Shown in pieces: positions 48,659 to 64,000 of a stretch of 64,000 nt of DNA. Every line of letters begins with the position of its first letter. Positions within the stretch are counted from its first letter, which is position 1. Both the position numbers and the translations under genes were made by a program. Below the pieces are notes generated by a model that was not told the origin of the DNA, made no database searches, and was given only the letters and a program-made list of their open reading frames with translations. The stretch is from a virus (taxonomy: Duplodnaviria > Heunggongvirae > Uroviricota > Caudoviricetes): IMG/VR virus record IMGVR_UViG_3300031857_000009, one strand, 5' to 3'.

Positions 48659-49783
48659 TTATTCTTCTTCATCTTTTCGATAACTTTCCAAGAGTTCCTC
48701 CCCTGAAAGTGTACCGTATTTATTTACAATTTTTTCGGTGTCTATTTCAACATTCATCATGTGATGAACATTATTTAATTCTTCGGCTAATGATAAACTA
48801 TCACTAATCACTTTAACGATTTTATATGGGTCCGCGTGTGATGCTGGTCTCCTGTCTTCAAGATAACCCTTCCATGTCTCACCAACGGATTTTGGTACAC
48901 GGATAGATGCACCTCTGTCTGAGACACCCCAACTAAATTTATCAATAGATTGTGTCTCAAAATGACCTGTTAATCTCAAATGGTTATCAGAACCATAAGA
49001 GTCAATATGTTCTTGTGTTCTTGATTCAAAAGACCTAAAAATTGCATTGAAGTATTGTTCACCACCCTCTTCTCTCATTTTTTGATTTGAGAAATTTGTA
49101 TGTAAACCTGAACCGTTCCATTCTCCGTGGGTCATCGGTTTGGGATGTAACTCAATAGAACGACCATATTTCTCAGCAATTTTATGTAAAAAATATCTAC
49201 TCATCCATAAATCATCAGAAGCGGCAATTTTACCTGTTGCAAAAATTTGGTATTCCCATTGACCTAATGCAACCTCTGAATTGGTTCCCTCCACATTGAT
49301 GTCATATTTTAAACACATGTTCAAATGTTCATCAGAAATATTTCGACCAACAATATGTCCACCTACACCACAATAATAAATTCCTTGACCGTCAATGATA
49401 CCATTTCTTTCAAATCCAAGAATTGGATTATTATGTGAAGAACGAATAAAATATTCCTGTTCAAATCCAACCCAAAAATTTACATCTTCCTCACCTACTT
49501 TTGCTCTATGATTTGATGGATGAATTTCATTATTACCATCTAAAACCTCACATAATACATATACTGTATCAAGTGAACTATTTGTATGATATAATTTTAC
49601 TGGCTTAAGATAACAATCTGAAAAGTTACCTTCCGCTTGTTTAGTTGAGCTTCCGTCAAACCCCCAATTGGGGATGTGTTTCAATTCAAATGGTGCCGGT
49701 AGGTCCACAATTTTTATTTTACTTCTGAGATTTGGCTCAGGGGAATACCCATCAAGCCATACGTATTCTACTTTTGTTTTCAT
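48659..49783 (-). CDS. glnII: glutamine synthetase, type II (eukaryote-like GSII)
   Basis: VEYVWLDG beta-grasp start, NWGFDGSST, GFEQEYF, GIYYCGVG, NGSGLHTNFS, RLTGHFETQSI, SIRVP and LEDRRPAS are collinear with GSII over about 370 aa. Confidence 0.8.
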   Translation of the reverse strand: MKTKVEYVWLDGYSPEPNLRSKIKIVDLPAPFELKHIPNWGFDGSSTKQAEGNFSDCYLKPVKLYHTNSSLDTVYVLCEVLDGNNEIHPSNHRAKVGEEDVNFWVGFEQEYFIRSSHNNPILGFERNGIIDGQGIYYCGVGGHIVGRNISDEHLNMCLKYDINVEGTNSEVALGQWEYQIFATGKIAASDDLWMSRYFLHKIAEKYGRSIELHPKPMTHGEWNGSGLHTNFSNQKMREEGGEQYFNAIFRSFESRTQEHIDSYGSDNHLRLTGHFETQSIDKFSWGVSDRGASIRVPKSVGETWKGYLEDRRPASHADPYKIVKVISDSLSLAEELNNVHHMMNVEIDTEKIVNKYGTLSGEELLESYRKDEEE

Positions 49784-50767: not shown

Positions 50768-51615
50768 TTATTCTTCAAACATTACCAGTTGTTTCTTTTG
50801 GTTATCATAATCAATCAATCTCTGTTGAGATATCTTTGTGTAAGATTCTGATAACTCAAAACCAATATAATTTCTATTCAGCTTCTTAGCTGACAAAGCG
50901 GTGGTTCCACTTCCTGAAAAACAATCAACAATCAGGTCATTTTGATAGGAAAGTATTTTTATTGCTTTCATTGGGATGTCCATGGAGAATGTGGCTTTAG
51001 TTAAAGATTTTGTGTCGTTGAAGTATTTCCATTGACCAAAGACTAATTCCATGAATTCGTTTTTGTCTTTATCTGAATAAACCCTTTTGTTTTTAAAATT
51101 ACCTTCCTCGTTTTCGACCTCAATCTGATTATAAGACCATTGAGATATACCTTTTTCTTTCTTTTTGTAATCTTTCTTATATGCAAGAATTACACATTCT
51201 TTTGGATTGTATATGTATGGTGATGATGGTGACATCCAAGAACCCCAAGCGGTTGTTTTAGAACGGTGTGGAGAATCCTCCTCTAAGTCCACAACACCAA
51301 AGAATCCAAAACCAATCTCTTTCATCATCTGCCAATATTCAGATACTAAGAAAATTCTCCCACCTCTTTCTCTAACGTTTATTTCATATGGTATATTCAA
51401 GGCAATTCTACCATCATCTTTTAATGTACGGTAAACTTCGGATAACCATTTCTTACACCACTCAAAATACTCATCCATCGGAGCATCGTCTTTGTGCACA
51501 TCATAACTAATACCGACATTGTACGGTGGACTCGTAACAAAGAGGTCTACAGTACCGTCATTTAACTCCTTAAACAGTTCTAAGCAGTCACCCTGATAAA
51601 TTTTATTCATTTCCA
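50768..51615 (-). CDS. beta-class DNA methyltransferase (N4-cytosine or N6-adenine), SPPY motif
   Basis: Motif IV DLFVTSPPYN is N-terminal and motif I DCFSGSGTT is C-terminal. The track start is a TTG; the first ATG is at about 51615. Confidence 0.7.
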
Positions 51616-51703
51616 TTGACAAATTGTTTTCTATTTATTATTATTACAAAAGATAACGAATAAAAAACAATAAACCAAAATATTTATAAAAAAACTTAAA
51701 ATC

Positions 51704-52215: not shown

Positions 52216-53673
52216 ATGATTACAATAGGTTACAGTACAAGAGAGTCCAACCCAAAATTTCAAGAATATTTAAAAAAAACTTGTGGACACCCCAAAGTTC
52301 AAGTTATTGAAAAAGTAAACAATGGTGAAAAAAGTCTTTCACAAACTTACAATGAAATTATTCAAGAGTCGATTCATGATATTGTCGTACTTTGTCATGA
52401 TGACATTTACTTTAATACGACTTCGTGGGGTAGAAAATTAGTCAAACATTTTGAAGAATCTGACTACGGGATTCTCGGTGTTGCCGGTACAACCAATATT
52501 CATGAGAGTGGTAGGTGGTGGACAGATAATACCAAAATGGTTGGTATTGTTAATCATGAAAATGAGGGTAAAAAATGGGAATCGAGATATGCAAATGGAA
52601 TCCCAAATTCAATTCACGAAGTTTGTTTAGTGGATGGTTTATTCATTGGAATCCACAAAAACAGAATAAAACACACTTTTGATGAGTCAGTACCGGGTTT
52701 TCATTTTTATGATATGGTATTCTGTACTAGCAATCACTTAAGTGAGGTAAACATCGGTGTTATATACAACATAAGAATCACTCACAAATCAATCGGAATG
52801 ACCAATGATTCTTGGGAAAAGAATAGGGAATTTTACATTGAAAAATTTAAAGAGAACCTACCAATTAATATAACACCAAAAATTGATTATGACATAACCA
52901 AACCAAAACAGTTTAAAGATAAATTTAATTTAATAGTTCAAACATCAAACGATAATGAAAATTTAATTCAGTTTTTTGAAAACATAAAAAAATTACCAGT
53001 GTTTGATAGTTTACAGATTTCACTCATCTCGACGGATACCAATATAGACAATATTAGAGAATTTGAATCTGAAAATATTAAAATTTACGAGGGTTTTTTT
53101 GATACATTAAATAAAAACTTATCAGTACTGAAATGGGATGAATCGTTTATGGAATCAAAAACAGATTTGTTATTTTTCAGTAATGATACTGTTACCGTAT
53201 TGAACGACGTTTTCTCAAGTATGTATTCAATATTTAAGAGTGAAAAAAATACTTTTGGGTGCGTCTTTCCTACAGTATTAGAAAACGACCGAACAATTTT
53301 TTCAAATGGATTGGATATAGTTCAAAACAACGAACAGTTCAATTTAATTTTTAAAAACAAATCATCTTTTTTCAATATTTTACACGGACACTTTCCAAAC
53401 AATTTTGGTAGTATTAGTGACTTTTTTGCCACTACATCTACAAATTTAAAAATGATTGATTGGTTTGATATTAATTTAGAAACATCAATTTATAACTTAG
53501 ATTTTGCGTTGAAAACTTTACTTAAAAAACGTAAAACATTCATTGACACAAACAGTGTGGTAATGATTGATATGGCATCAAAATTTGAAAAGGTTGATGT
53601 TGAATTAAAACAAGTCTTAGGTCAGTACATAAACTCACCTGAAATTAGAAAAAATATCAAACAATTAAGATGA
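52216..53673 (+). CDS. glycosyltransferase (GT-A/GT2-like N-terminal domain) with C-terminal extension
   Basis: IGYSTRESN...VVLCHDDIYF resembles the GT2 N-terminus. It is the first gene of an overlapping operon. Confidence 0.45.
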   Translation: MITIGYSTRESNPKFQEYLKKTCGHPKVQVIEKVNNGEKSLSQTYNEIIQESIHDIVVLCHDDIYFNTTSWGRKLVKHFEESDYGILGVAGTTNIHESGRWWTDNTKMVGIVNHENEGKKWESRYANGIPNSIHEVCLVDGLFIGIHKNRIKHTFDESVPGFHFYDMVFCTSNHLSEVNIGVIYNIRITHKSIGMTNDSWEKNREFYIEKFKENLPINITPKIDYDITKPKQFKDKFNLIVQTSNDNENLIQFFENIKKLPVFDSLQISLISTDTNIDNIREFESENIKIYEGFFDTLNKNLSVLKWDESFMESKTDLLFFSNDTVTVLNDVFSSMYSIFKSEKNTFGCVFPTVLENDRTIFSNGLDIVQNNEQFNLIFKNKSSFFNILHGHFPNNFGSISDFFATTSTNLKMIDWFDINLETSIYNLDFALKTLLKKRKTFIDTNSVVMIDMASKFEKVDVELKQVLGQYINSPEIRKNIKQLR

Positions 53674-54449
53674 TAAAAATTGTATCGGGATTTACAGAAA
53701 AAGGTGGTTCTACCACTTTTTTTATAAACTTAACAAATTTCTTAAATGAAAATGGTATTGATTGCACATTTTACGGTAATCAGAATTACCATTTAGACAA
53801 ATGTAAATCAGGGAACATTGAAAAAGATTTAAAGTATGAATCTGATGATATTGTAATTACCCATTTTTTACAACTACAGGAAAGACCACCTGTTAAAAAA
53901 GTTATTTTGTCTTGTCATGAAAAATGGTGGTTCCCTGTTGGTAAAATTAAACAGTATTGGGACCTGTGCGTGTTTTTACATGAAGAGCATCGAAAATATC
54001 ACTCGGATTACAGGGGTGATTATGTAATAATACCAAACATCAAAGAAAATTTAATTATTTCAAATAAAGAGCTGGTAAGAAATATTGCAGGAATTATTGG
54101 TACAATTGAAGACAGAAAACAGACCCATGTGTCAATACAAAGAGCATTAAAAGACAGGTGTGAAAAAATCTATTTGTTCGGTCACATCGGTGACCAAAAC
54201 TATTTTGACAAATTGGTAAAACCTTTAATGAATCCAAGAGTAATTCATTACGGTCACACCACCAATAAACAAGAAATGTACGATATGATTGGTAAGGTAT
54301 ATCACTCATCAAAGGGTGAGGTTGCTTGTTTGGTTAAAGATGAATGTTATTTAACCGGTACAGAGTTTTATGGTAATGAAGAGACTATGAATGAAGTTTC
54401 TAAATTAAGTAACGAAGAGATATTAACACTTTGGAAAAACATATTTTAA
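53670..54449 (+). CDS. putative GT-B glycosyltransferase
   Basis: C-terminal SSKGEVACLVKDECYLTGTE resembles the GT4 E-x7-E region. There is a 4-nt overlap with the upstream gene. Confidence 0.35.
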   Translation: MIKIVSGFTEKGGSTTFFINLTNFLNENGIDCTFYGNQNYHLDKCKSGNIEKDLKYESDDIVITHFLQLQERPPVKKVILSCHEKWWFPVGKIKQYWDLCVFLHEEHRKYHSDYRGDYVIIPNIKENLIISNKELVRNIAGIIGTIEDRKQTHVSIQRALKDRCEKIYLFGHIGDQNYFDKLVKPLMNPRVIHYGHTTNKQEMYDMIGKVYHSSKGEVACLVKDECYLTGTEFYGNEETMNEVSKLSNEEILTLWKNIF

Positions 54450-54450
54450 A

Positions 54451-55173
54451 ATGAAGATACACGCACATATACTGTCATGGAATGAAGAAAAAATATTACC
54501 ATTCACATTGGATTACTATAGTACAATCTGTGAAAAAATATTCATATACGATAATATGTCAACGGACTCCTCTGATGAGATTTATAAGAGGTACCCAAAA
54601 GTTGAGGTTATTAAATGGGATAGTGGTAATGAAATAAATGAAATTAATTACGTAAACATTAAATCCGAAGAGTATAAAAAAAGAAGTAGAGGTCAGGGTG
54701 TTGATTGGGTTATAGTTTGTGACTGTGATGAGTTTATATACCATGAAAATCTTATGGATAAACTTCAAGAGTACAAAGAAATGGGTATAACCGTCCCAAG
54801 AATAGACGGTCACGACATGGTTAGTACTGAATTTCCAATATACGACGGTGAATTCATTACAACAAAAATTAAAACAGGTTCACAAACGTATGAACCAATG
54901 TGTAAAAATATAATTTTTCATCCTGATTTAGATATAAAATACGGCATTGGTGGTCACAGTTTTAATTCTGTTGATGGTAAATTTTCGGATGAGCGGGAAA
55001 TAAAACTTCTTCACTATAAATTCTTGGGTAAAGACTACGTGAAGAACATTTACATTTCAAGAGCAAAGAGATTGTCATCGTTCAATAAACAACATAAATT
55101 CGGTGAACATTATTTTAATTTACCATTCAATTACATGGACAGCATGTTAAAAGAAAATTATCAAGTTATATGA
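54451..55173 (+). CDS. GT-A glycosyltransferase
   Basis: IFIYDNMSTDSSDEI and a CDCDE DxD motif. Confidence 0.5.
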   Translation: MKIHAHILSWNEEKILPFTLDYYSTICEKIFIYDNMSTDSSDEIYKRYPKVEVIKWDSGNEINEINYVNIKSEEYKKRSRGQGVDWVIVCDCDEFIYHENLMDKLQEYKEMGITVPRIDGHDMVSTEFPIYDGEFITTKIKTGSQTYEPMCKNIIFHPDLDIKYGIGGHSFNSVDGKFSDEREIKLLHYKFLGKDYVKNIYISRAKRLSSFNKQHKFGEHYFNLPFNYMDSMLKENYQVI

Positions 55174-55991
55174 GGAAAATACTTATATCGGATTTTACCA
55201 TTAAAGAAGTACCTCACGGTGGTTCTGAATGGGTGAATCAAGTTTTAATTGATAGATTTAATCTTGAGTTTGAATATTCAAACCAAGTCAAGTCATTTGA
55301 TTACAACGCCCTGTATATTATATCAAATATTTCTTTGATGAACCCAAACTTGGTTAATCAAATACAAAATTTGAACTACGTCATTATTGAAAACGATTAT
55401 AAAATATGTGCAAGTAGACACCCATGGAGATATACCGACAACATAATTCCGATTGAGGAAAGAACCAACTATTCTCTTTACCGGAATGCAAAAGCGGTAT
55501 TTGTTCAAACAACCGACCACATGAACGTTTATCTTAAAAACGATGTTGTTGCTAATTTTATAAATCTGAATAGTTCGATATGGTCAAATGAGGACTTAGA
55601 ATTATTGAGGAATTTAAATAAATCCAACAATGTTAAAAACGACAAATATTCTGTTTACTATACAAATAATTGGATAAAGAACACCCAAGGTAGTCTGAAG
55701 TATTGTTCTGAAAATAAATTACCGGTCCATATTCTTAAAGAATCTAAAGACAGAGTTGAATTTTTAAGTAATATGGCCAAATGTAAAGGTATTGTGTTTT
55801 TCCCGATAGCAAGAGAAACTTTTTGTAGACTGGTTGTTGAGGCAAAATGTTTAGGTTTGGAAGTAATAACGACACAAAATTATGGTGCAAGTTTAGAAGA
55901 ATGGTTTAATAGGTTATCAGGTGATGAATTAATTGATTTCTTAGAAACTAACACTTTAAAAAATTTAGAAATCATTTCAACTTATATATGA
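55170..55991 (+). CDS. GT-B glycosyltransferase (GT4-like)
   Basis: FFPIARETFCRLVVEAKCLGLEVITT matches the GT4 C-terminal signature. Confidence 0.5.
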   Translation: MRKILISDFTIKEVPHGGSEWVNQVLIDRFNLEFEYSNQVKSFDYNALYIISNISLMNPNLVNQIQNLNYVIIENDYKICASRHPWRYTDNIIPIEERTNYSLYRNAKAVFVQTTDHMNVYLKNDVVANFINLNSSIWSNEDLELLRNLNKSNNVKNDKYSVYYTNNWIKNTQGSLKYCSENKLPVHILKESKDRVEFLSNMAKCKGIVFFPIARETFCRLVVEAKCLGLEVITTQNYGASLEEWFNRLSGDELIDFLETNTLKNLEIISTYI

Positions 55992-56980
55992 TATTATTTT
56001 GTTACGGCACAAGACCTGAGTATATTAAAATAAAAAAATTAATAGAAATGTGTGGGGAAAGTATTCCCCATAAAATTTTATATGTTACCCAACACAAAGA
56101 TATTGTATTGGGTGATTTTGATTATAAATTATCCATTGATGATACGTGTGAAAATAGATTGGATAGTATTATGTCATCCGTATTTTTAAATTTTAAAAAA
56201 GAATTTTTGGAAGGGGTTACACATATACTTATCCAAGGGGACACCGCAACCGCTCTTTCATTATCCCTAATAGGATTACACCATAAAAAAGAAGTGATTC
56301 ATTTAGAAGCGGGATTACGGACATATGACTACAATCACCCTTACCCCGAAGAAATGTATCGGCAGTTAATTAGTAGAATTTCAAACTATAATCTTTGCCC
56401 AACAGAAAGTAACAAGATGAACTTAGAAAATGAAAAAGTTCAGGGTAAAAATTTTGTAGTTGGCAATACCGTATTAGATAATCTTAATAAAGAAAATATT
56501 ACATACGAAAATAAAGTCTTAATCACTTTACATAGAAGAGAGAATCATGAGATGATGTCGGAGTGGTTTGATGTTATCAATCGATTAGCAAAGAATAATC
56601 CTGAATTAAAATTCATTCTTCCAATACACCCAAACCCAAACGTCATAAAACACAAACATATATTGACACATGTTGATGTTATTGAACCATTAACCCATGA
56701 TAAATTTATTGAGGAATTCAAATCCTGTAAATTACTAATTTCAGATAGTGGGGGTGTTCAAGAAGAGGCGTCGTTCCTAAATAAGAAAGTTATTGTATGT
56801 AGAGAAAAAACTGAGAGACCTGAGTCCTTGGGTAAAACGTCTTTTATATGTAAAAAACCCATTGACTTAGAAGGTATTTTTTACGATATTATTAACGATT
56901 TCCAAACAGAATATGATTGTCCTTTTGGTGATGGTAATTCTTGTGAAAGAATCATTGAAATATTTAGAAAAATTGTATGA
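55988..56980 (+). CDS. wecB: UDP-N-acetylglucosamine 2-epimerase (non-hydrolysing)
   Basis: GTRPEYIKI, HLEAGLRTYD, PYPEEMYRQLISRIS, GNTVLD, LITLHRREN and DSGGVQEEA are collinear with WecB/MnaA. Confidence 0.8.
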   Translation: MILFCYGTRPEYIKIKKLIEMCGESIPHKILYVTQHKDIVLGDFDYKLSIDDTCENRLDSIMSSVFLNFKKEFLEGVTHILIQGDTATALSLSLIGLHHKKEVIHLEAGLRTYDYNHPYPEEMYRQLISRISNYNLCPTESNKMNLENEKVQGKNFVVGNTVLDNLNKENITYENKVLITLHRRENHEMMSEWFDVINRLAKNNPELKFILPIHPNPNVIKHKHILTHVDVIEPLTHDKFIEEFKSCKLLISDSGGVQEEASFLNKKVIVCREKTERPESLGKTSFICKKPIDLEGIFYDIINDFQTEYDCPFGDGNSCERIIEIFRKIV

Positions 56981-57705
56981 GTATAACGGTAATATTAAAT
57001 GGGTATAAAAGACCACATGTTCTCCAAAAACAATTGGAATCAATTAGAAATCAAAGTGTCCAACCCGAATCAATTTTATTTTGGCAAAATTCTGGTTCTC
57101 AATTTGATGAGGGACTAACCAAAGATTTAATTCACGCATCTTGTAATAGTAATTTAGGTGTGTGGGCAAGATTTGCATTTGCTTTAAATGCCAACACAGA
57201 ATATATTTGTGTTTTTGATGATGACACAATACCGGGTAAACTATGGTTAGAAAACTGTCTAAACACCATGAAAATTCAAGAAGGTTTATTAGGAACTATC
57301 GGTGTAAAATTTCACACAAAAAACTCTTATTGGCCAGCAACAAGAGTCGGTTGGGACCAACCTAACGAAGAAATTGAAAAGGTCGACATTGTTGGTCACT
57401 CGTGGTTCTTTAAAAGAGAATGGTTATCGATATTTTGGAGAGAATTACCTGAAATCAATCAGAGTAAATTAGTTGGTGAGGATATGCACTTTTCATATAC
57501 ATTACAGAAATACGCAAATATCGGAACTTACGTTCCTCCCCATCCTAAAGAAAATAGAGAAATGTGGGGTAGTATACCAGAATATGCATGGGAACATGGA
57601 ACTGATTCCAACGCAATTTCCGTAAATCATTCAAATATGAATTTAATGGGTGAAGTTTACCGTGGGTATGTAAATAAAGGATTTAAGACAATATTAAATG
57701 ATTGA
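56977..57705 (+). CDS. putative GT-A glycosyltransferase
   Basis: VILNGYKRPHVL...ICVFDDDTIP DxD motif. Confidence 0.4.
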   Translation: MSITVILNGYKRPHVLQKQLESIRNQSVQPESILFWQNSGSQFDEGLTKDLIHASCNSNLGVWARFAFALNANTEYICVFDDDTIPGKLWLENCLNTMKIQEGLLGTIGVKFHTKNSYWPATRVGWDQPNEEIEKVDIVGHSWFFKREWLSIFWRELPEINQSKLVGEDMHFSYTLQKYANIGTYVPPHPKENREMWGSIPEYAWEHGTDSNAISVNHSNMNLMGEVYRGYVNKGFKTILND

Positions 57706-58417
57706 AAAGTATATTGAAGATTTTAATTCGTTTTGGGAAAAGATAGATAGTCGAACTAACTTTTCTTTTGTTAGATATGCCGATGGTGAAGTGATGTTAA
57801 TGAATAATTCACCGATAGAAAAGAATACACAAGCGTATCAAAACGATAAATGGTTTTCGAGTGGGGGACAAACCAAATTAGGTGTGGATTTAAATGAATG
57901 TATAGGGTTGAACGACCCAAATTTTTATTTTGCAATATCCTCCAAAACTGATAGTATTAGAGACTATAATTTTTTATATGATAGAATACAAAATAAATCA
58001 AACATTACATTTGCTAACCTATGGATTAACGCAAATTACAAAGAAAATATATCAAGAATAAGAAATATAAATCGAGATGTTGTTTTAATTTGTAATGAAA
58101 ATTGTGATTTAAAAAACATACCATTTAGTGTATCAGAATTTGTACCGTTCCCTAATGATTGTGTAAACTATTGGGAAGAACATAGAGATTCGTTTTTAGA
58201 AAAAATATACAATGTTTCTTCAAAATATAAAGATACTTTATTTATCGTATGTTGTGGACCAACATCTGCTGTTATCATAAAACATATGTTTACAAATAAT
58301 AGTAATAACACTTATATTGATTTTGGTTCCGCATTAGATGTATTCATACATAATAAAATAACTAGACCATACATGTATGAAGGGTCACAATATCATAATC
58401 ACATATCAAAATTTTAA
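57698..58417 (+). CDS. hypothetical protein (glycan operon)
   Basis: 239 aa, overlaps its neighbours. Confidence 0.4.
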   Translation: MIEKYIEDFNSFWEKIDSRTNFSFVRYADGEVMLMNNSPIEKNTQAYQNDKWFSSGGQTKLGVDLNECIGLNDPNFYFAISSKTDSIRDYNFLYDRIQNKSNITFANLWINANYKENISRIRNINRDVVLICNENCDLKNIPFSVSEFVPFPNDCVNYWEEHRDSFLEKIYNVSSKYKDTLFIVCCGPTSAVIIKHMFTNNSNNTYIDFGSALDVFIHNKITRPYMYEGSQYHNHISKF

Positions 58418-58423
58418 TTCAGT

Positions 58424-59014
58424 ATGAATAATGATTTTTGTGTCATAGTACAAGGACCTTCAGACTACGTTAAAGAATTAAAAAACGCTTGGACTGGTTA
58501 TGATTTGATTTGGTCAACATGGCAAGGTGAAGAATCAAAATACGATACTAATGATGTTGTCTTATTCAACAGTATTCCACACGATAGGGGTGTACAAAAT
58601 ATAGCACTACAAAAAATATCAACTTTGAATGGAATAATGAAAGCCAAAGAAATAGGTTACAACAGAGTCCTTAAATGGAGAAGTGATTTACTACCATCTA
58701 ATGCAAATAGATTAGTTTCCACATTTAAAAAAGAGTGTGTAAATTTTTTGACTTGGCATAATGAAGGAAAATATTTTGTTGATTATTTTGTGGAGGGTGA
58801 AATAGATACGGTGTTTGATATTTGGAATGTATCTACCATACACGATGAGTATTCGGAAAAAATAATCACGGAAAATATAATATCACTTAACTATAAAAAT
58901 ATAAACTTTATGGGTGGCGAATTAAGTAATGATAATGAAATTTTTTGGTTAAAACGAAATATTAATTTGTCCACATATAAAGACGCACCATGTTATAGTA
59001 TGGTGGTGATTTAA
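58424..59014 (+). CDS. hypothetical protein (glycan operon)
   Basis: 196 aa ORF. Confidence 0.4.
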   Translation: MNNDFCVIVQGPSDYVKELKNAWTGYDLIWSTWQGEESKYDTNDVVLFNSIPHDRGVQNIALQKISTLNGIMKAKEIGYNRVLKWRSDLLPSNANRLVSTFKKECVNFLTWHNEGKYFVDYFVEGEIDTVFDIWNVSTIHDEYSEKIITENIISLNYKNINFMGGELSNDNEIFWLKRNINLSTYKDAPCYSMVVI

Positions 59015-59025
59015 AAATTATAAAA

Positions 59026-59760
59026 ATGATAGATAATTCAAAATTTATTGACGACGCATTTACTCAAGATGAATTAAATAGGGGTGCCTTTACCGATTTG
59101 AATGGTAGATGTCCATTATGGACAACAAAAATGATTAATGTTATAAAAGATAAAATTGACTTTAATGATGTCAACACAATATTAGATATTGGGTCAAGAG
59201 ATGGTTGCCAAAGTTTAGAGTTAAATAGATGGTTTCCACATGCTAAAATATATGCGTTTGAACCAGTAAAAGAAAACTACGAATTTACAGTTAAGAACGT
59301 TGAGAAAATTAATAACATAAAAGTTTACCAATACGCAATAAACAATTACAACGGTAAAACTAAATTTTACGAAGTTTATAATGGAAATGTGGGTGCCAGT
59401 TCTTTATTACAGACAACAAACCACTGGCGTTCATCTCAGTGGGCCCAAAAGGAAACTGAGGTTGACTGTATTGTTCTTAGTGATTGGTTAAAAGAAAATG
59501 ATATTAAAAGTGTTGATTTGATTTGGATGGATGTTCAAGGTGCAGAAAATATCGTATTAGACTCTCTAAAAGAATATTTAAATGATGTAAAAATAATAAC
59601 CACCGAAGTAGGGTTACAGGAATTATATCGTGGTTCTACAAGTAAATCTGAACTAGATGAAAAACTAAATAGGTTTATACCAATAGACGAGTCGCCAGAA
59701 TCTTCAAACACAGAAATGGATGTGGTTTATATCAACAAAAATTTAACACCTTATGGATAA
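59026..59760 (+). CDS. FkbM-family SAM-dependent methyltransferase
   Basis: ILDIGSRDGCQSLE...IYAFEPVKENYEF matches the Methyltransf_21 pattern. Confidence 0.6.
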   Translation: MIDNSKFIDDAFTQDELNRGAFTDLNGRCPLWTTKMINVIKDKIDFNDVNTILDIGSRDGCQSLELNRWFPHAKIYAFEPVKENYEFTVKNVEKINNIKVYQYAINNYNGKTKFYEVYNGNVGASSLLQTTNHWRSSQWAQKETEVDCIVLSDWLKENDIKSVDLIWMDVQGAENIVLDSLKEYLNDVKIITTEVGLQELYRGSTSKSELDEKLNRFIPIDESPESSNTEMDVVYINKNLTPYG

Positions 59761-60454
59761 TAAAATTTGTTACGTTACTTATACAAATTCAAAATGTTCA
59801 GATATTTTGGATATGTTCTTGTTAGAACAAAAAAAGTACACAAACTTACCGATGTATTTTATTACAGATGTAATGATACCCGAGCAAATTTGTTTTTTAT
59901 ATGAAAATCAAGAACCTTATTATGAATCATGGTTAAAGTGTTTATCTTCAATACCATATGACTATTTTATATACTTACAAGAAGACTTTATTCTTTATAA
60001 CAATGTCAGTCATGATAAAATTTTTAATTACCTCGATTTTTTACATGATAACCAAGAATATTCGTTCATTAGATTGTTAAAATCGGGGTCTGTTAAAGAT
60101 AAAAAAATTTATGAGACCTTATATGAAATAGAATCCGACAATAAAGATATATTTTCTATGCAACCAACTATTTGGAAAAAAGATGATTACATTAAAATCA
60201 TGAAAGGTACCAAAAATAATATGTGGTTAGAGAATGAAACATATAGAAATTTTATGATAGAAAACAACATCAAAGGTTTATATCATTACGATGGTGAAAA
60301 CAAAAGGGGGTTGAATCATTTTGATAGTTCTGTTTATCCATATATAGCAACGGCTTTAGTTAGAGGTAAATGGAATTTATCTGAATACCCTAATGAACTC
60401 TCTCCATTAATAAATGAATATGAAATAAACGTAAATGTTCGGGGGATACATTAA
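59753..60454 (+). CDS. hypothetical protein (glycan operon)
   Basis: 233 aa ORF. Confidence 0.4.
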   Translation: MDNKICYVTYTNSKCSDILDMFLLEQKKYTNLPMYFITDVMIPEQICFLYENQEPYYESWLKCLSSIPYDYFIYLQEDFILYNNVSHDKIFNYLDFLHDNQEYSFIRLLKSGSVKDKKIYETLYEIESDNKDIFSMQPTIWKKDDYIKIMKGTKNNMWLENETYRNFMIENNIKGLYHYDGENKRGLNHFDSSVYPYIATALVRGKWNLSEYPNELSPLINEYEINVNVRGIH

Positions 60455-60456
60455 TA

Positions 60457-61131
60457 ATGAAAATTGTTCTATCTTTTTACACCAACAATAAATTTAGTAA
60501 CACCGTTCAAAAATTAATCGGATATTATAATTCACGTGGTTTCAATGATATCCGAGGATTTAAATCTGAAGATGTTAAGAAAGGTATTTTTTATGAAAAC
60601 CATAAAGAAATATTAGATTGTGAAACGGGTGATGGATTTTGGTTGTGGAAACCAAAAATTATTTTAGATATTTTGAATGAATTAGAAGATGGGGATGCAT
60701 TAATTTATACCGATGCCGGTGATTTAGTTGATGTTGATTATAATACGATTGCAAATTATTTGAAAGATAATGATTATTATTTTACAAATTGGAATGGAAA
60801 TCGTTGGCCTCAAAAAATATGTACAAAAAGAGACTGTTTTATCTTGATGGATTGTGATGAAGAAAAGTTTCATGAAACACCACAGATGGAAGCAGGATTT
60901 ATCATCATTAAAAAAACCAAACAAATGATGGAATTTGTTCACGATTATTTTAAGTATTGTAGTATTAAACAGATAGTTGACAATGAACCAAATCAAATTG
61001 GTGAGAATTTTCCAAATTGGCAATTCCATAGAAATGACCAAAGTATATTAACTAACTTGGTTGTGAAACATAATTTAAAATTTGATTATTGTCTCGATTA
61101 TAGAATAAAATACAACGTATATATACCATGA
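60457..61131 (+). CDS. putative nucleotide-diphospho-sugar transferase
   Basis: LWKPKIIL...IYTDAGD, a DxD-like motif. Confidence 0.3.
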   Translation: MKIVLSFYTNNKFSNTVQKLIGYYNSRGFNDIRGFKSEDVKKGIFYENHKEILDCETGDGFWLWKPKIILDILNELEDGDALIYTDAGDLVDVDYNTIANYLKDNDYYFTNWNGNRWPQKICTKRDCFILMDCDEEKFHETPQMEAGFIIIKKTKQMMEFVHDYFKYCSIKQIVDNEPNQIGENFPNWQFHRNDQSILTNLVVKHNLKFDYCLDYRIKYNVYIP

Positions 61132-61889
61132 AATTTATTGCATTAAATTATAATTATGACTTAAATAAAATGTCCCAAATCGGTCGGAAATGGGCGTTTG
61201 ATGTCTACAAAAATAAAGAGTTTATATCTGATTATTCATCAGCATCTTATGCTTCATTTATTGATAAGAATAGAAAAAGTATTTTACATCTTTATACTGA
61301 TGATGTTGAGGGTATGAAAGAAAAAATGAACAAGTATAACATTGACCAAGACAGAATTATTTATATTGATTACACGGAACAACTTACCAAATACAATGAA
61401 AGTCTTAATTATAGTTTTACAGTTTTAAATGATTTTATTAATTATGCAAAATCAGAAACTGAGTACACTGTAAAAATCGATAATGATTTATTTTTTCATT
61501 CGGAATTACCACAAATTGATGATAATTCTATTATGGTTTGGAAGTATGAAAGAATCGTTAGGAATGGTGACCCGAGATGGGGTGAAATAAAAATATGTAA
61601 ACAGGTTACAAATGATTTAGATTTTAAAATTTATAATTTAGGTATTTTTGGGTTGCCCGCGGATTACAATATTCACCAAGCAAAAAAAATTATGGAAGAT
61701 ATGATATCGGTAGACATTTCAGATGTGACTGATACAGACTCGAAGATTTATCATTGTTGTGAGCAAACGGCAAATAATTGGATTTTTCACAAAGAAAATT
61801 ATAACGTGATTGAAACGTATAATTATGTTGACCACCTGTTTGATAGAAAAGGTGATTGTATAGAATTATCAAAATATCTTTTAAAATGA
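61128..61889 (+). CDS. hypothetical protein (glycan operon)
   Basis: 253 aa ORF. Confidence 0.4.
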   Translation: MKFIALNYNYDLNKMSQIGRKWAFDVYKNKEFISDYSSASYASFIDKNRKSILHLYTDDVEGMKEKMNKYNIDQDRIIYIDYTEQLTKYNESLNYSFTVLNDFINYAKSETEYTVKIDNDLFFHSELPQIDDNSIMVWKYERIVRNGDPRWGEIKICKQVTNDLDFKIYNLGIFGLPADYNIHQAKKIMEDMISVDISDVTDTDSKIYHCCEQTANNWIFHKENYNVIETYNYVDHLFDRKGDCIELSKYLLK

Positions 61890-62653
61890 AAACATCAGTA
61901 GTATTGACAATTCACAACAAGGAATTCTTAATGAACCAAGTGGTGAGTAACTTGGTAAATAATTTATCAGAACTGAATGACCAGATTGTAATAGTTTTTG
62001 ATGGTTGTACAGATAATAGTGAAGGTATTGTTCGTGACAATTTAAAGAGAGTTAGTAATAAAAAAATTGATTACCTGTATGCCGACAATGTTTTTGAAAC
62101 CAAAGCAAATAATATTGGTCTAAAGTCTGTTATAAATGATTATGTGGTCTTAATCCAAGATGATATGGTTGTCACAGAAAAAGATTTTGATAAGAGGATG
62201 TTGGAACCGTTCATAAAATATAGTGATGTGTTCGCTGTAACATCTTTTGTTGCTCACAATAACATCTATAATGAACAAACAAAACAAATAAATTACATCG
62301 ATATTGCACATAAAGATAACTCATCAAGAGATATTTTTTATGCTAGAGAATATGGTAACAGAGGTCCACTAATGTACAACTATAATGACGTGGTCAAATT
62401 AAATTTTTTAGACGAATATTTTTCACCCCAAAATTATGATGATATGGATATGTCCATGAGAGCATTCAAAGAACTCGGAAAAGTGTCAGGTTTATATACG
62501 ATAGATTATATTTCCGAACCTGGATGGGGGACCACTAGACAAAAAAATCAATCATTACATAATAATTTAGTTTACGTAAACGCAGCAAAAATACTTGAAA
62601 AACACAGGGATTTATTGTATAATAAAGACAAATATAAAGAGGATAGAGAATGA
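61886..62653 (+). CDS. family 2 glycosyltransferase
   Basis: MKTSVVLTIHNKEF...VIVFDGCTDNS...IQDDMVV. An ATGA overlap at 61886-61889 gives a likelier start than the track's 61856. Confidence 0.55.
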   Translation: MKTSVVLTIHNKEFLMNQVVSNLVNNLSELNDQIVIVFDGCTDNSEGIVRDNLKRVSNKKIDYLYADNVFETKANNIGLKSVINDYVVLIQDDMVVTEKDFDKRMLEPFIKYSDVFAVTSFVAHNNIYNEQTKQINYIDIAHKDNSSRDIFYAREYGNRGPLMYNYNDVVKLNFLDEYFSPQNYDDMDMSMRAFKELGKVSGLYTIDYISEPGWGTTRQKNQSLHNNLVYVNAAKILEKHRDLLYNKDKYKEDRE

Positions 62654-63267
62654 ATAATATAGAGCTAAAGACATTTATGATTAATCATAATGTTAATATC
62701 CATGGTGTGATTCACGTTGGTGCACATTTTGGTCAAGAAGATGAAGTTTATAAGGAATTGGGTATTTCAAACAGAATATACTTTGAACCTCTATCGTCTA
62801 ATTTTGAGACCTTAAAAGAAAAAATAGATGATGACGCAATTTTAGTTAAACTGGCGTTAGGTAATGAAAAGAGAAAAGTTTCTATGTTTGTAGAATCCTT
62901 TAATAAAGGTATGTCATCCTCAATATTAGAACCGAAATTACATTCTGTTCAATTTCCTCATATCGTTTTTGATTCTGTAGAAGAAGTTGAAATGGATAGA
63001 TTGGATGATTTAAATTACGATTTTTCAAAATACAACATGATGAATATCGATGTTCAAGGTTTTGAATTAGAGGTTCTCAAAGGTTCCGTGAATACATTAA
63101 TCAACATTGACTACGTTATTGTAGAAATAAACAGAGCCGAATTATATAAAGGTTGTCCACACTTTGATGAAATAAACAATTGGATGACACATCATGGGTT
63201 TACCTGTGTTGAACAATTTTGGTGGGGTAATAATTTTGGTGAGGGATTTTTTAAAAAAATAAAATGA
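62650..63267 (+). CDS. FkbM-family SAM-dependent methyltransferase (second copy)
   Basis: GVIHVGAHFGQEDEVY...IYFEPLSSNFE. Confidence 0.55.
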   Translation: MNNIELKTFMINHNVNIHGVIHVGAHFGQEDEVYKELGISNRIYFEPLSSNFETLKEKIDDDAILVKLALGNEKRKVSMFVESFNKGMSSSILEPKLHSVQFPHIVFDSVEEVEMDRLDDLNYDFSKYNMMNIDVQGFELEVLKGSVNTLINIDYVIVEINRAELYKGCPHFDEINNWMTHHGFTCVEQFWWGNNFGEGFFKKIK

Positions 63268-64000
63268 AACGAGTATTAGTATTGGGTGGTGGCGGATTTA
63301 TTGGTGGTCACCTAGCAAAAAGATTAAAAAATGAAGGAAACTACGTAAGAGTAGTTGATATAAAAAGACACGAATATTTTGATGAGAAAGACTTTTGTGA
63401 CGAATTCTTAATATATGACCTTACGGACCCAAAAAACGTATCATCAGTAATGAGATTAGAAGAATTAAATGGTACGATATTACCGTTTAATTATTACAAA
63501 CAACCATATTCAACTGAGGTCCCATTTGATGAGGTTTATCAATTAGCTGCCGATATGGGTGGTGCTGGTTACATCTTCACTGGTGAAAATGACGCGAATG
63601 TTATGCACAATTCTGCAATGATAAATTTAAATGTTGTAAATGAATCAGTGAAGACAAAAGTTAAGAAGATTTTTTATTCATCATCGGCATGTATGTATCC
63701 TGAACACAATCAATTAGACCCTAACAACCCAAATTGTGAAGAATCATCAGCATATCCCGCGAATCCTGATTCAGAATATGGTTGGGAAAAACTTTTTTCG
63801 GAAAGGTTGTACTTGGCTTTTCACAGAAATCACGGTTTGGATGTTCGAATTGCTAGATTTCATAACATATTTGGTCCATATGGTACGTGGAAAGGTGGTA
63901 AAGAAAAAGCACCAGCAGCTATGTGTAGAAAAGTTGCCGAAATGTTAGACGGTGGAGAAATTGAAGTTTGGGGTGATGGTCAACAGACTCGTTCATTCTT
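63264..64000 (+). CDS. GDP-mannose 3,5-epimerase-like NAD-dependent epimerase (3' end outside window)
   Basis: Rossmann LVLGGGGFIGGHL. Further downstream, SSACMYPEHNQLDPNNP...YGWEKL...RIARFHNIFGPYGTWKGGKEKAPAAMCRKV is nearly collinear with plant/algal GME. The ATGA overlap is at 63264. Confidence 0.7.
   Translation, partial: MKRVLVLGGGGFIGGHLAKRLKNEGNYVRVVDIKRHEYFDEKDFCDEFLIYDLTDPKNVSSVMRLEELNGTILPFNYYKQPYSTEVPFDEVYQLAADMGGAGYIFTGENDANVMHNSAMINLNVVNESVKTKVKKIFYSSSACMYPEHNQLDPNNPNCEESSAYPANPDSEYGWEKLFSERLYLAFHRNHGLDVRIARFHNIFGPYGTWKGGKEKAPAAMCRKVAEMLDGGEIEVWGDGQQTRSF

What the first reader, a model, noticed from the sequence alone, without database searches (positions are those of the whole stretch)
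63264..64000. Plant/algal-type GDP-mannose 3,5-epimerase encoded at the operon end
The partial ORF shows long collinear identity with the GME signature (SSACxYPE...YGxEKL...RxxRFHNIxGPxGTWKGGxEKAPAAxCRK). GME makes GDP-L-galactose and GDP-L-gulose, which are rare sugars in prokaryotes. Its presence implies the glycan contains L-galactose, L-gulose or a derivative, possibly O-methylated by the FkbM enzymes.
Basis: partly seen in the sequence, partly recalled or inferred. Interest (0 to 1): 0.7.

Follow-up and report, generated by a model that had tools for sequence, protein, structure and literature searches.

The report
Phage-encoded GDP-mannose 3,5-epimerase gene
The last gene of a 15-gene sugar-building operon in an uncultured large phage is a real GDP-mannose 3,5-epimerase, which makes activated L-galactose, but the same gene is common in Bacteroidota bacteria and aquatic phages, so it is a sound annotation rather than a surprise.

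Summary
Window 63264-64000 (+) holds the first 245 codons of a 353-aa protein; two public contigs identical to the window supply the rest.

The protein is a GDP-mannose 3,5-epimerase (GME/GM35E):
- It scores 298 bits against Arabidopsis GME; the next solved SDR scores 80 bits.
- It is 50.2% identical to the plant enzyme, the same level as the only characterised bacterial GME.
- All eight residues that define the family are conserved, including the Cys/Lys acid-base pair and the Cys-acidifying Arg.
- The 14 best fold matches are all GME structures.

It closes an operon of 15 soluble proteins (glycosyltransferases, a WecB-type epimerase, two FkbM methyltransferases). A hairpin plus T-run follows the stop codon.

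"Plant/algal-type" and "rare in prokaryotes" are overstated:
- The nearest relatives are Bacteroidota enzymes (70-76% identity) and enzymes on viral contigs.
- The capped scans confirmed relatives at 582 sites in species-representative genomes and 596 sites in IMG/VR, and in 57 isolate phage records.
- A cyanophage GME was published in 2022, and JGI already names this exact protein GME.

New here are the host-lineage context and a 21-residue loop insertion that I found only in viral or metagenomic copies. Enzyme activity and the glycan's destination are untested.

The parts
63264..64000 (+). First 245 codons of the 353-aa GDP-mannose 3,5-epimerase gene. The gene continues to window-equivalent 64325 (L001:10615-11676).
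   Evidence: P0001 is 100% identical over the fragment, and L001/L002 have 0 mismatches over the shared 11,351 nt.
63285..63305 (+). NAD-binding glycine motif G8-x-x-G11-x-x-G14 (GGGGFIG) of the Rossmann fold.
   Evidence: Translation. Invariant in 46 relatives. The bacterial GxxGxxG form is described in PMC6678494.
63453..63515 (+). Loop insertion of about 21 residues (about 64-84, RLEELNGTILPFNYYKQPYST) between helix 3 and strand 4. The whole loop is 33 residues here and 12 in most bacterial GMEs.
   Evidence: Alignment. Loop-length census: 33-38 residues in 0 of 56 genome loci, 16 of 71 viral loci and 95 of 95 scored metagenomic relatives. Modelled with pLDDT about 96 as short strands.
63678..63704 (+). 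SSSACMYPE. Contains S141 (triad Ser, At S143) and C143 (catalytic acid/base Cys, At C145).
   Evidence: Residue mapping on 2c59. Residue roles from PMC8787198.
63777..63791 (+). YGWEK. Contains Y172 and K176 (SDR YxxxK, At Y174/K178).
   Evidence: The positions are fixed by the PDB mutants Y174F (2c5a) and K178R (2c54).
63855..63932 (+). RFHNIFGPYGTWKGGKEKAPAAMCRK. Contains N201 (At N203) and K215 (catalytic base Lys, At K217).
   Evidence: The position is fixed by the PDB mutant K217A (2c5e).
63984..63998 (+). QTRSF. Contains R243 (diphosphate-binding Arg, At R243). The Cys-acidifying R318 (At R306, GVRGRNSDN) lies beyond the window in P0001.
52216..53673 (+). First gene of the operon: 485-aa glycosyltransferase (Glyco_tranf_2_5).
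   Evidence: Pfam E=2.9e-24. No TM segment.
53670..54449 (+). Operon gene, 259 aa, no family assigned.
54451..55173 (+). Family 2 glycosyltransferase (Glyco_tranf_2_4).
   Evidence: Pfam E=3.2e-15.
55170..55991 (+). Operon gene, 273 aa. Only a sub-threshold GT1 hit.
   Evidence: Pfam E=0.0025, below the cut-off.
55988..56980 (+). UDP-GlcNAc 2-epimerase, WecB (non-hydrolysing) type.
   Evidence: Pfam Epimerase_2 E=4e-60. NCBIfam wecB 209.9 bits against a cut-off of 210.15; NeuC only 37.7 bits.
56977..57705 (+). Family 2 glycosyltransferase.
   Evidence: Pfam E=1e-6.
57698..58417 (+). Possible GT-D-fold glycosyltransferase (weak).
   Evidence: Pfam GT-D-like E=1.2e-4, 21.9 bits, below the cut-off of 27. 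No PDB sequence match.
58424..59014 (+). Operon gene, 196 aa, no family assigned.
59026..59760 (+). FkbM-family methyltransferase 1.
   Evidence: Pfam E=1e-19. NCBIfam fkbM_fam 89.5 bits.
59753..60454 (+). Operon gene, 233 aa, no family assigned.
60457..61131 (+). Operon gene, 224 aa, no family assigned.
61128..61889 (+). Operon gene, 253 aa, no family assigned.
61856..62653 (+). Family 2 glycosyltransferase. Public gene calls start it at L001:9282 (240 aa) or L002:9237 (255 aa).
   Evidence: Pfam E=1.9e-12. Gene calls.
62650..63267 (+). FkbM-family methyltransferase 2. Its stop codon overlaps the GME start codon.
   Evidence: Pfam E=1.3e-16. NCBIfam 61.7 bits.

Best explanation
The ORF encodes a true member of the GDP-mannose 3,5-epimerase family (GM35E/GME, an extended short-chain dehydrogenase/reductase). 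It is the last gene of a 15-gene operon of soluble glycan-building enzymes, on an uncultured large phage whose host is probably a member of the Bacteroidota.

Proposed mechanism. The enzyme takes GDP-alpha-D-mannose made by the host; no mannose-activating gene was found among the ORFs I scanned. Tightly bound NAD+ oxidises C4 with the help of S141/Y172/K176. C143 and K215, with R318 lowering the pKa of the Cys, epimerise C5 and C3. C4 is then reduced again. The products are GDP-beta-L-galactose and some GDP-L-gulose. One of the operon's glycosyltransferases is expected to pull this equilibrium by transferring the L-sugar into a phage-specified glycan. That glycan probably also contains ManNAc (from the WecB-type epimerase) and O-methyl groups (from the two FkbM enzymes).

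Shown: family membership by sequence, catalytic residues and fold; the position at the operon end; the all-soluble gene set.

Inferred: the substrate and products; which transferase uses the product; methylation.

The destination of the glycan is not resolved. The operon has no priming transferase, flippase or polymerase, so assembly must be cytoplasmic and must either use host export machinery or a soluble acceptor. My estimates are about 0.4 for remodelling a host envelope glycan built on host lipid carriers, about 0.35 for glycosylation of virion proteins, and about 0.05 for DNA. The confidence given here (0.85) refers to the enzyme's identity and its role as the supplier of GDP-L-sugar to the operon, not to the destination.
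For: - Sequence. phmmer of the full-length protein against the PDB gives Arabidopsis GME at E=1.3e-87 (298 bits) and Myrciaria GME at 4e-84; the next hit is UDP-xylose synthase at 2e-21 (80 bits). The window fragment alone gives 1.7e-61.
- Residues. All 8 of the residues that the GM35E review lists as defining (S143, C145, Y174, K178, N203, K217, R243, R306; PMC8787198) are conserved as S141, C143, Y172, K176, N201, K215, R243, R318. The PDB mutants Y174F, K178R and K217A fix the register.
- Identity. 50.2% identity to AtGME over 303 aligned positions. The only characterised bacterial GME has 50.5% (PMC6678494).
- Fold. The AlphaFold model has mean pLDDT 80 and pTM 0.83. Its 14 best Foldseek PDB matches are all GME chains (E about 1e-30, TM 0.73-0.84); UXS follows at 1e-21.
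- Other families. No other NCBIfam equivalog comes near its cut-off: Fcl 103 of 500 bits, GalE 57 of 262.
- Existing name. JGI names the identical protein GDP-D-mannose 3',5'-epimerase.
- Operon. Glycosyltransferases, WecB and two FkbM enzymes. None of the 14 upstream operon proteins has a predicted TM segment. A terminator-like hairpin follows the stop codon. Gene order is kept in viral contigs L083, L100 and L136.
- Composition. GME GC3 is 0.246, inside the operon's range of 0.20-0.295, so the gene is long resident.
- Phage nature and host. A sibling IMG/VR contig carries a GME with 95% identity. There are PHROG hits and a helicase closest to Bacteroides, Chryseobacterium and Flavobacterium phages. 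The closest cellular GMEs are from Bacteroidota.
Against: - No enzyme assay exists for this protein or for any phage GME that I could find.
- The ratio of products (L-Gal to L-Gul) and the true physiological substrate cannot be read from sequence.
- The model has low confidence (pLDDT below 50) at residues 97-107 and 142-175, which include C143 and Y172. This is probably because the alignment used was shallow (46 sequences at 73-84% identity).
- The 21-residue loop insertion has no known counterpart in characterised GMEs, and its effect is unknown.
- No gene for GDP-mannose synthesis was found among the ORFs scanned in the window, so substrate supply is assumed.
- Nothing in the window identifies the acceptor.
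Confidence: 0.85

Rival explanations
1. The protein is another extended-SDR nucleotide-sugar enzyme that merely resembles GME. Candidates are UDP-glucuronate decarboxylase (UDP-xylose synthase), UDP-glucose 4-epimerase (GalE, which is how most cyanophage copies are annotated) and GDP-L-fucose synthase (GMER/Fcl).
For: Pfam gives only the generic Epimerase and GDP_Man_Dehyd families. The best NCBIfam hit is Fcl. 'UDP-glucose 4-epimerase' is the commonest annotation among the isolate cyanophage records listed.
Against: - PDB GME scores 298 bits, against 80 for UXS, 71 for GalE and 65 for GMER.
- NCBIfam scores are far below the cut-offs: Fcl 103 of 500, GalE 57 of 262. NCBIfam returned no GME model among its hits.
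- The catalytic base is Lys (K215) and the Cys-acidifying residue is Arg (R318). GMER uses His and Lys, and GalE lacks the extra acid/base pair (PMC8787198).
- The top 14 fold matches are all GME.
- The review states that annotating GM35E as GalE or GMER is a common error.
Confidence: 0.03
2. The protein is a GME-family enzyme but makes a different product. It might deliver only GDP-L-gulose (as proposed for BlmG in bleomycin synthesis). Or it might act on another GDP-sugar, such as a GDP-heptose or a modified GDP-mannose, so that the glycan contains no L-galactose.
For: Characterised GMEs release both L-Gal and L-Gul. Bacterial homologues have been linked to L-gulose (bleomycin) and L-galactofuranose (A201A) (PMC6678494). 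The phage copy carries a 21-residue loop insertion of unknown effect, and an 11-residue insertion (GEEFKQKYGYK) that plant enzymes lack.
Against: - All residues that contact the substrate or perform catalysis are unchanged.
- The 11-residue insertion is shared with ordinary Bacteroidota GMEs.
- In the model, the 21-residue insertion lies between helix 3 and strand 4 of the NAD domain, not in the sugar-binding domain.
- No heptose-pathway gene was found. The one apparent 'phosphoheptose isomerase' match is a HAD phosphatase.
Confidence: 0.1
3. Alternative destination: the operon glycosylates virion proteins in the cytoplasm. This is what mycobacteriophage glycosyltransferase operons and giant-virus glycan clusters do, and GME would supply L-galactose for a virion glycan coat.
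For: - None of the 14 upstream operon proteins has a TM segment, and there is no priming transferase, flippase, polymerase or ligase. In Flavobacterium endophyticum, by contrast, the 74%-identical GME sits in a Wzx/Wzy locus with Bac_transf, a flippase and Wzy_C.
- The gene set combines nucleotide-sugar enzymes, many glycosyltransferases and methyltransferases. From my own knowledge, this resembles the glycan clusters of chloroviruses and mimiviruses.
- Virion glycosylation is documented in mycobacteriophages (Freeman et al. 2023, cited in PMC12619734).
- Cluster content varies between related phages.
Against: - The operon is not next to structural genes in the window. Its flanks are DNA-metabolism and redox genes.
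- Most O-antigen glycosyltransferases are also soluble or peripheral, so the absence of TM segments does not exclude lipid-linked acceptors.
- I found no report of a glycosylated virion for phages of Bacteroidota or cyanobacteria.
Confidence: 0.35
4. Alternative destination: the glycosyltransferases hypermodify phage DNA with a glycan.
For: Phage glycosyltransferases can decorate DNA with varied glycans (Pyle et al. 2024, cited in PMC12619734). A thymidylate-synthase-family gene (45396-46721) and DNA methylases lie nearby.
Against: The thymidylate-synthase homologue keeps the dUMP-type motifs LPPCH and PFNIASY, so nothing suggests a hydroxymethylase. No other base-modifying enzyme was seen. 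Fifteen genes including FkbM methyltransferases and WecB is far more than the DNA-glycosylation systems I know of use (my own knowledge).
Confidence: 0.05

Closest known systems
Arabidopsis thaliana GDP-mannose 3,5-epimerase (GME/GM35E; PDB 2C59, 2C54, 2C5A, 2C5E) and Myrciaria dubia GME (8SG0/8SKB)
   Same: Same family. It is 50.2% identical over 303 aligned residues, with the same eight catalytic and binding residues and the same fold.
   Different: - The phage protein lacks the plant N-terminal extension (about 28 residues) and C-terminal extension (about 35 residues).
- It has GxxGxxG where Arabidopsis has GxxGxxA.
- It carries a 21-residue loop insertion (about 64-84) and an 11-residue insertion (299-309).
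- In plants the enzyme feeds ascorbate and cell-wall synthesis rather than a phage glycan operon.
Methylacidiphilum fumariolicum MfGM35E, the only characterised bacterial GME (PMC6678494)
   Same: A prokaryotic-type GME with about 50% identity to the plant enzyme, a GxxGxxG motif and the conserved Cys, Lys and Arg. It is proposed to serve surface-glycan (LPS) synthesis.
   Different: It is cellular and thermophilic. The phage copy's closest cellular relatives are from Bacteroidota, not Verrucomicrobia.
Bacteroidota GMEs, for example Flavobacterium endophyticum DSM 29537 (L006), Kaistella, Maribacter, Dyadobacter and Chitinophagaceae
   Same: 70-76% identical, and they share the 11-residue insertion GEEFKQKYGYK.
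   Different: In 39 of 56 genome loci the loop is 12 residues rather than 33. In F. endophyticum the gene lies in a classical Wzx/Wzy surface-polysaccharide locus with a priming transferase, a flippase and a Wzy-like protein. All three are absent from the phage operon.
Cyanomyovirus GME homologues, for example S-SCSM1 ORF123 (published as GDP-mannose-3,5-epimerase, PMC9602691), S-SSM7 gp253, S-SCSM2R gp236 and Sf-CH8 gp150
   Same: Phage-encoded GMEs (53-58% identical over the full length) inside variable islands of glycosyltransferases, methyltransferases and sugar-nucleotide enzymes.
   Different: They belong to a different phage lineage with a different host phylum. There the gene sits at the 5' end or inside the cluster, often with GMD and Fcl. 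Most are annotated as 'UDP-glucose 4-epimerase'. A wcaG RNA is annotated upstream in two of them, whereas the window has no Rfam hit.
GDP-L-fucose synthase (GMER/Fcl/WcaG)
   Same: An extended SDR that also performs 3,5-epimerisation on a GDP-hexose using a catalytic Cys.
   Different: It uses His as the base and Lys to acidify the Cys, and it is an NADPH-dependent reductase acting on GDP-4-keto-6-deoxymannose (PMC8787198). The window protein has Lys and Arg instead and scores 103 bits against a cut-off of 500.

Membership tests
GDP-mannose 3,5-epimerase (GM35E/GME) | [quoted passage not shown] | tested here: met
   G8-x-x-G11-x-x-G14. Pfam Epimerase E=1.1e-33. The model shows a Rossmann fold.
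GDP-mannose 3,5-epimerase (GM35E/GME) | Catalytic triad [ST]...YxxxK (At S143, Y174, K178) | tested here: met
   S141, Y172, K176. The register is fixed by the PDB mutants Y174F and K178R.
GDP-mannose 3,5-epimerase (GM35E/GME) | Cys-Lys acid/base pair for the C5 and C3 epimerisations (At C145, K217) | tested here: met
   C143 and K215. The K217A mutant 2c5e fixes the register. Both are invariant in 46 relatives.
GDP-mannose 3,5-epimerase (GM35E/GME) | An Arg that acidifies the catalytic Cys (At R306), where GMER has Lys | tested here: met
   R318 in GVRGRNSDN of the full-length P0001. It lies beyond the window edge, on contigs identical to the window.
GDP-mannose 3,5-epimerase (GM35E/GME) | Diphosphate-binding Arg (At R243) and conserved Asn (At N203) | tested here: met
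   R243 and N201.
GDP-mannose 3,5-epimerase (GM35E/GME) | Closer in sequence and fold to solved GMEs than to any other SDR | tested here: met
   298 versus 80 bits. Foldseek E about 1e-30 for 14 GME chains versus 1e-21 for UXS.
GDP-mannose 3,5-epimerase (GM35E/GME) | [quoted passage not shown] | not testable with these tools
   This needs an assay of the recombinant enzyme.
GDP-L-fucose synthase (GMER/Fcl) | His as catalytic base and Lys acidifying the Cys; reaches the NCBIfam equivalog score | tested here: not met
   The protein has Lys (K215) and Arg (R318) instead. NF047922 scores 103.4 bits against a cut-off of 500.
UDP-glucose 4-epimerase (GalE) and UDP-xylose synthase | Reaches the family score; has no additional acid/base pair | tested here: not met
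   TIGR01179 galE scores 57 bits against a cut-off of 262. PDB UXS scores 80 bits against 298 for GME. The Cys/Lys pair is present.
Wzx/Wzy-dependent surface-polysaccharide locus (for the operon) | Polyprenyl-phosphate priming transferase, flippase and polymerase encoded in the locus | tested here: not met
   None of the 14 upstream operon proteins has a TM segment, and none matches Bac_transf, Polysacc_synt or Wzy. All three are present around the Flavobacterium endophyticum homologue.
Virion-glycosylation system (mycobacteriophage or giant-virus type; for the operon) | Soluble virus-encoded glycosyltransferases acting on capsid or tail proteins, with glycan detected on virions | not testable with these tools
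   A soluble gene set is shown. No virion data exist, and no structural genes lie next to the operon in the window.

The most novel reading that the evidence does not exclude
The GME is part of a self-contained cytoplasmic glycan factory with no membrane component. This factory would coat the virion proteins of a large Bacteroidota phage with a methylated glycan containing L-galactose and ManNAc, a phage counterpart of giant-virus capsid glycosylation. The loop insertion seen only in viral and metagenomic copies (33-38-residue loop; 0 of 56 cellular against 16 of 71 viral loci) would be an adaptation of the viral enzyme, for example a docking surface for a partner transferase. Similar GME-bearing islands lie next to GME in other viral contigs, and GME homologues were confirmed at 596 sites in IMG/VR. 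If the reading is right, virion glycosylation with L-sugars would be a widespread and overlooked trait of aquatic phages.
Probability: 0.25. Interest if true: 0.65.

Novelty: new member of a known kind. Interest (0 to 1): 0.3.

Why it matters
The annotation is now firm: a phage carries the one-enzyme route from GDP-mannose to activated L-galactose and L-gulose. That fact is not new. A cyanophage GME was reported in 2022, and JGI already gives this exact protein the name.

Three things give it modest value:
- Many isolate cyanophage copies are annotated as UDP-glucose 4-epimerase. The residue test used here corrects that.
- GME marks large, variable islands of soluble sugar enzymes in phages of at least two host phyla. 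The function of these islands has never been tested, and at least one ocean-scale catalogue of auxiliary metabolic genes deliberately discards them (PMC11360552).
- A loop insertion seen only in viral and metagenomic copies gives a concrete handle for asking whether phage GMEs have diverged in function.

A stable phage or mesophilic GME could also interest groups that make L-sugars enzymatically.

Tried and rejected
- **Other SDR families (UXS, GalE, Fcl, RfbB).** Rejected on scores and catalytic residues.
- **'Plant-type' origin.** The nearest relatives are Bacteroidota and viral. A neighbour-joining tree of 154 sequences with 100 bootstraps resolved only WINDOW+L083 (100) and +P0002/P0011 (76). 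Deeper nodes had support below 35, so no donor lineage can be named.
- **Recent horizontal transfer.** GC3 matches the rest of the operon.
- **DNA glycosylation through a hydroxymethylase.** The thymidylate-synthase homologue has the dUMP-type Asn motif.
- **Glycan export by a phage ABC transporter.** The 4-TM protein at 11755-12597 matches ABC_membrane_3 only. It has no ATPase next to it and lies 40 kb from the operon.
- **Heptose pathway.** A match to a cyanophage 'phosphoheptose isomerase' is in fact a HAD phosphatase.
- **wcaG RNA or another riboswitch upstream of the operon.** No Rfam family reaches its threshold anywhere in the window. No tRNAs were found.
- **PDB sequence searches with operon proteins.** The GT2_5 protein, the GT-D-like protein and the 253-aa unknown gave nothing. 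tblastn of the GT2_5 protein against isolate phages also gave nothing.
- **Megablast of 24 kb of the window against isolate phages.** Only a 150-nt thyA stretch matched Flavobacterium phages, so no cultured close relative exists in that collection.
- **Sigma-70 promoter scan.** No more hits than in shuffled sequence, so it is uninformative.
Full report
**1. The observation**

Window 63264-64000 (+) translates without a stop into 245 residues. The start is an ATG that overlaps the TGA of the upstream FkbM gene.

The ORF runs off the window. A look-up of the upstream FkbM protein returned two public contigs: JGI 3300021599 Ga0226807_1000004 (156.9 kb) and ENA ERZ27247994 (82.6 kb). Both are identical to the last 11,351 nt of the window. 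They give the full gene, L001:10615-11676, encoding 353 aa. This is protein P0001, which is 100% identical to the fragment.

The same protein is indexed in 56 blocks of the assembly collection, on contigs up to 288 kb.

**2. What the protein is**

*Sequence.* Against all PDB sequences, the full-length protein hits Arabidopsis GME at E=1.3e-87 (298 bits) and Myrciaria GME at 4e-84. The next hit is human UDP-xylose synthase at 2e-21 (80 bits). The window fragment alone already gives 1.7e-61.

*Residues.* The GM35E review (PMC8787198) lists the residues that separate GME from GalE and from GDP-fucose synthase:
- the triad S143/Y174/K178;
- the acid/base pair C145/K217;
- the Cys-acidifying R306 (Lys in GMER);
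- the diphosphate-binding R243;
- N203.

The PDB mutant chains Y174F, K178R and K217A fix the alignment register. On that register, all eight residues are conserved as S141, C143, Y172, K176, N201, K215, R243 and R318.

*Identity.* Identity to AtGME is 50.2% over 303 aligned positions. The only biochemically characterised bacterial GME, from Methylacidiphilum, has 50.5% (PMC6678494).

*Fold.* An AlphaFold model (pLDDT 80, pTM 0.83) has the 14 GME chains of the PDB as its 14 best Foldseek matches, at E about 1e-30. UXS follows at 1e-21.

*Other families.* NCBIfam returned no GME model, and no other equivalog comes near its cut-off: Fcl 103 of 500 bits, GalE 57 of 262. This probably explains why isolate phage copies carry generic or wrong names.

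**3. Differences from the plant enzyme**

- The phage protein lacks the plant N- and C-terminal extensions.
- It has an 11-residue insertion (GEEFKQKYGYK, 299-309). The Bacteroidota, Marinimicrobia and Verrucomicrobia homologues in the alignment share it; the Maricaulis and Saccharibacteria homologues do not.
- The loop between helix 3 and strand 4 is 33 residues long.

The table gives a census of that loop.

| Source | Sequences scored | Loop lengths found | With a 33-38-residue loop |
|---|---|---|---|
| Species-representative genome loci | 56 | 12 residues (39), 13-17 residues (12), 23 residues (5) | 0 |
| IMG/VR viral loci | 71 | 12 residues (30), 14 residues (1), 23 residues (24), 33-38 residues (16) | 16 |
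| Closest metagenomic proteins | 95 | 33-38 residues only | 95 |

The insertion has a conserved core, (I/L)xPF(S/N)YxKQP(Y/F). It is modelled with high confidence (pLDDT about 96) as short strands in the NAD-binding domain.

So the long-loop form appears only in viral and metagenomic copies in the sample I could draw. Its role is unknown. I did not establish that it arose once, because the neighbour-joining tree is unresolved below the tips.

**4. Genomic setting**

The gene is the fifteenth and last of a co-directional block, 52216-64325, whose genes overlap or nearly abut. The block contains:
- a Glyco_tranf_2_5 protein;
- four further proteins with family 2 glycosyltransferase matches;
- a weak GT-D-like protein;
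- a WecB-type (non-hydrolysing) UDP-GlcNAc 2-epimerase;
- two FkbM methyltransferases;
- six proteins with no family assigned.

A 9-bp G+C-rich hairpin with a T-run begins 3 nt after the GME stop codon. The next genes, for glutaredoxin, thioredoxin, an AAA protein and a Dam-type methylase, are convergent.

None of the 14 upstream operon proteins has a predicted transmembrane segment, and none matches a priming transferase, flippase, polymerase or ligase. In contrast, the 74%-identical GME of Flavobacterium endophyticum lies in a standard Wzx/Wzy locus with Bac_transf, a flippase and a Wzy_C protein.

The operon's GC content (0.298) is slightly below that of the window (0.327). GME's GC3 (0.246) falls inside the operon's range, so the gene is not a recent arrival.

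**5. Whose genome it is**

- No isolate phage matches at the DNA level, apart from 150 nt of thyA shared with Flavobacterium phages.
- The helicase is closest (36%) to those of Bacteroides, Chryseobacterium and Flavobacterium phages.
- Several ORFs match PHROG families.
- The sequence upstream of the window holds small early-type phage genes.
- A 170-kb IMG/VR contig (L083) carries a GME with 95% identity and the same neighbouring genes.
- The closest cellular GMEs are almost all from Bacteroidota.

I infer a large phage (contigs of 157-288 kb) of a Bacteroidota host. It shares traits listed for the recently described 'moraphages': a glutamine synthetase, core glycosyltransferases and Bacteroidota hosts (PMC12619734). 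I did not test membership of that group.

**6. How common the gene is**

- Relatives were confirmed at 596 sites in IMG/VR contigs, again with the limit reached.
- 57 isolate phage records hold a match. Most are Synechococcus or Prochlorococcus myoviruses, at about 60% identity.

In those phages too, the gene lies in islands of glycosyltransferases, methyltransferases and sugar-nucleotide enzymes. [quoted passage not shown]

The long-loop relatives P0083 and P0120 also close variable glycan islands, each followed by a PhoH gene.

FkbM genes lie within a few kb of GME in 31 of 80 viral loci and in 2 of 80 genome loci. The query FkbM proteins were the window's own, so this comparison is biased towards relatives of this phage.

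**7. Mechanism**

*Shown:* membership of the family, an intact catalytic apparatus, the position at the operon end, and an all-soluble gene set.

*Inferred from the family's established chemistry (PMC8787198):*
- Bound NAD+ oxidises C4 of GDP-D-mannose.
- C143 and K215 invert C5 and then C3.
- C4 is reduced again, giving GDP-L-galactose plus GDP-L-gulose.
- A downstream transferase draws off one product.
- The substrate must come from the host, because no mannose-activating gene was found among the ORFs scanned in the window.

*Unresolved:* where the glycan ends up. My estimates are:

| Destination | Probability | Basis |
|---|---|---|
| Host envelope glycan, built on host lipid carriers | about 0.4 | The traditional reading of cyanophage 'LPS' islands, and the role of GME in Bacteroidota |
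| Virion proteins | about 0.35 | The gene set has no membrane component and resembles giant-virus and mycobacteriophage systems |
| DNA | about 0.05 | The thymidylate-synthase homologue is of the ordinary dUMP type |

**8. Verdict**

The finding is real and correctly identified, but it is ordinary. It is a new member of a known enzyme family, in a setting (a phage glycan island) that has already been described. 'Plant/algal-type' and 'rare in prokaryotes' should be dropped.

What remains interesting is that the function of these phage islands has never been tested, and that the phage enzyme carries a loop insertion seen only in viral and metagenomic copies.

Noticed in passing
window 45396-46721 (-): The thymidylate synthase is 441 aa. 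The Pfam TS profile positions 1-227 are spread over residues 6-344, so about 110 residues are extra sequence. The motifs LPPCH and PFNIASY (dUMP type) are kept. A 150-nt stretch is 92% identical to thyA of the Flavobacterium 'immuto' phages.
   Followed up: partly
window 48659-49783 (-): A glutamine-synthetase-like protein (Gln-synt_C and Gln-synt_N domains). Glutamine synthetases, core glycosyltransferases and Bacteroidota hosts are traits reported for the 'moraphage' lineage (PMC12619734). Membership of that lineage was not tested.
   Followed up: no
window 63453-63515; loci L083-L162 and P0002-P0120: The GME loop between helix 3 and strand 4 falls into three main length classes: 12, 23 and 33-38 residues, with a few intermediate lengths (13-17). 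The longest class, with the core motif PF(S/N)YxKQP(Y/F), was found only in viral contigs and metagenomic proteins: 0 of 56 genome loci, 16 of 71 viral loci and 95 of 95 close metagenomic relatives.
   Followed up: partly
L001:11679-11699 (window-equivalent 64328-64348, just past the window end): The sequence AAGGGGGTTATTGACCCCCTT followed by CTTTTTTTTC forms a 9-bp hairpin with 5 G-C pairs and a T-run, 3 nt after the GME stop codon. It is a likely terminator shared by the convergent transcription units.
   Followed up: yes
window 16921-17658 (-), 17645-18340 (-), 20499-21371 (-): There is a second family 2 glycosyltransferase far from the operon. It matches the PHROG 'GtrB-like O-antigen conversion' family over the catalytic domain only and has no TM segment. 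A metallophosphoesterase lies next to it, and a weak 2OG-Fe(II) oxygenase match lies nearby.
   Followed up: partly
window 11755-12597 (-): An orphan 280-aa protein with four predicted TM segments matches ABC_membrane_3 (E=2e-13). No ATPase domain lies next to it. The 1.6 kb downstream contains only short ORFs.
   Followed up: partly
window 50768-51622 (-); L001:13661-14551 (-): Two DNA methyltransferases flank the glycan operon, one of the N6_N4_Mtase family and one of the Dam-type MethyltransfD12 family.
   Followed up: no
L164 (S-SCSM1), L166 (S-SCSM2R), L167 (S-SSM7), L165 (Sf-CH8): Isolate cyanophage GME homologues are mostly annotated 'UDP-glucose 4-epimerase' or 'NAD-dependent dehydratase', which is probably a misannotation. 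A 'wcaG' ncRNA is annotated upstream of the clusters in S-SCSM1 and S-SCSM2R. No Rfam family reaches threshold anywhere in the window.
   Followed up: partly
L168-L171 (contexts of P0083 and P0120): Other long-loop GMEs also sit at the 3' end of variable islands, followed by PhoH. The islands contain GT11, GT25-FkbM fusions, UDP-glucose dehydrogenase, NAD synthase, an aminotransferase and CapK-like proteins. P0083 is indexed in 109 blocks of the assembly collection.
   Followed up: partly
P0001 residues 97-107 and 142-175 (window about 63552-63584 and 63687-63788): The AlphaFold model has pLDDT below 50 exactly over the active-site stretch between C143 and Y172. This region is ordered in the plant crystal structures. 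The low confidence is probably an effect of the shallow alignment, but that was not checked.
   Followed up: no
window 41209-43044 (-), 9688-10170 (-), 26388-26954 (-): Three further proteins: a PcfJ-like protein of 611 aa; a sub-threshold match to the CBASS inhibitor Acb3 (E=0.0075, 16.5 bits against a cut-off of 27); and a glucosaminidase-domain protein that is a likely lysin.
   Followed up: no
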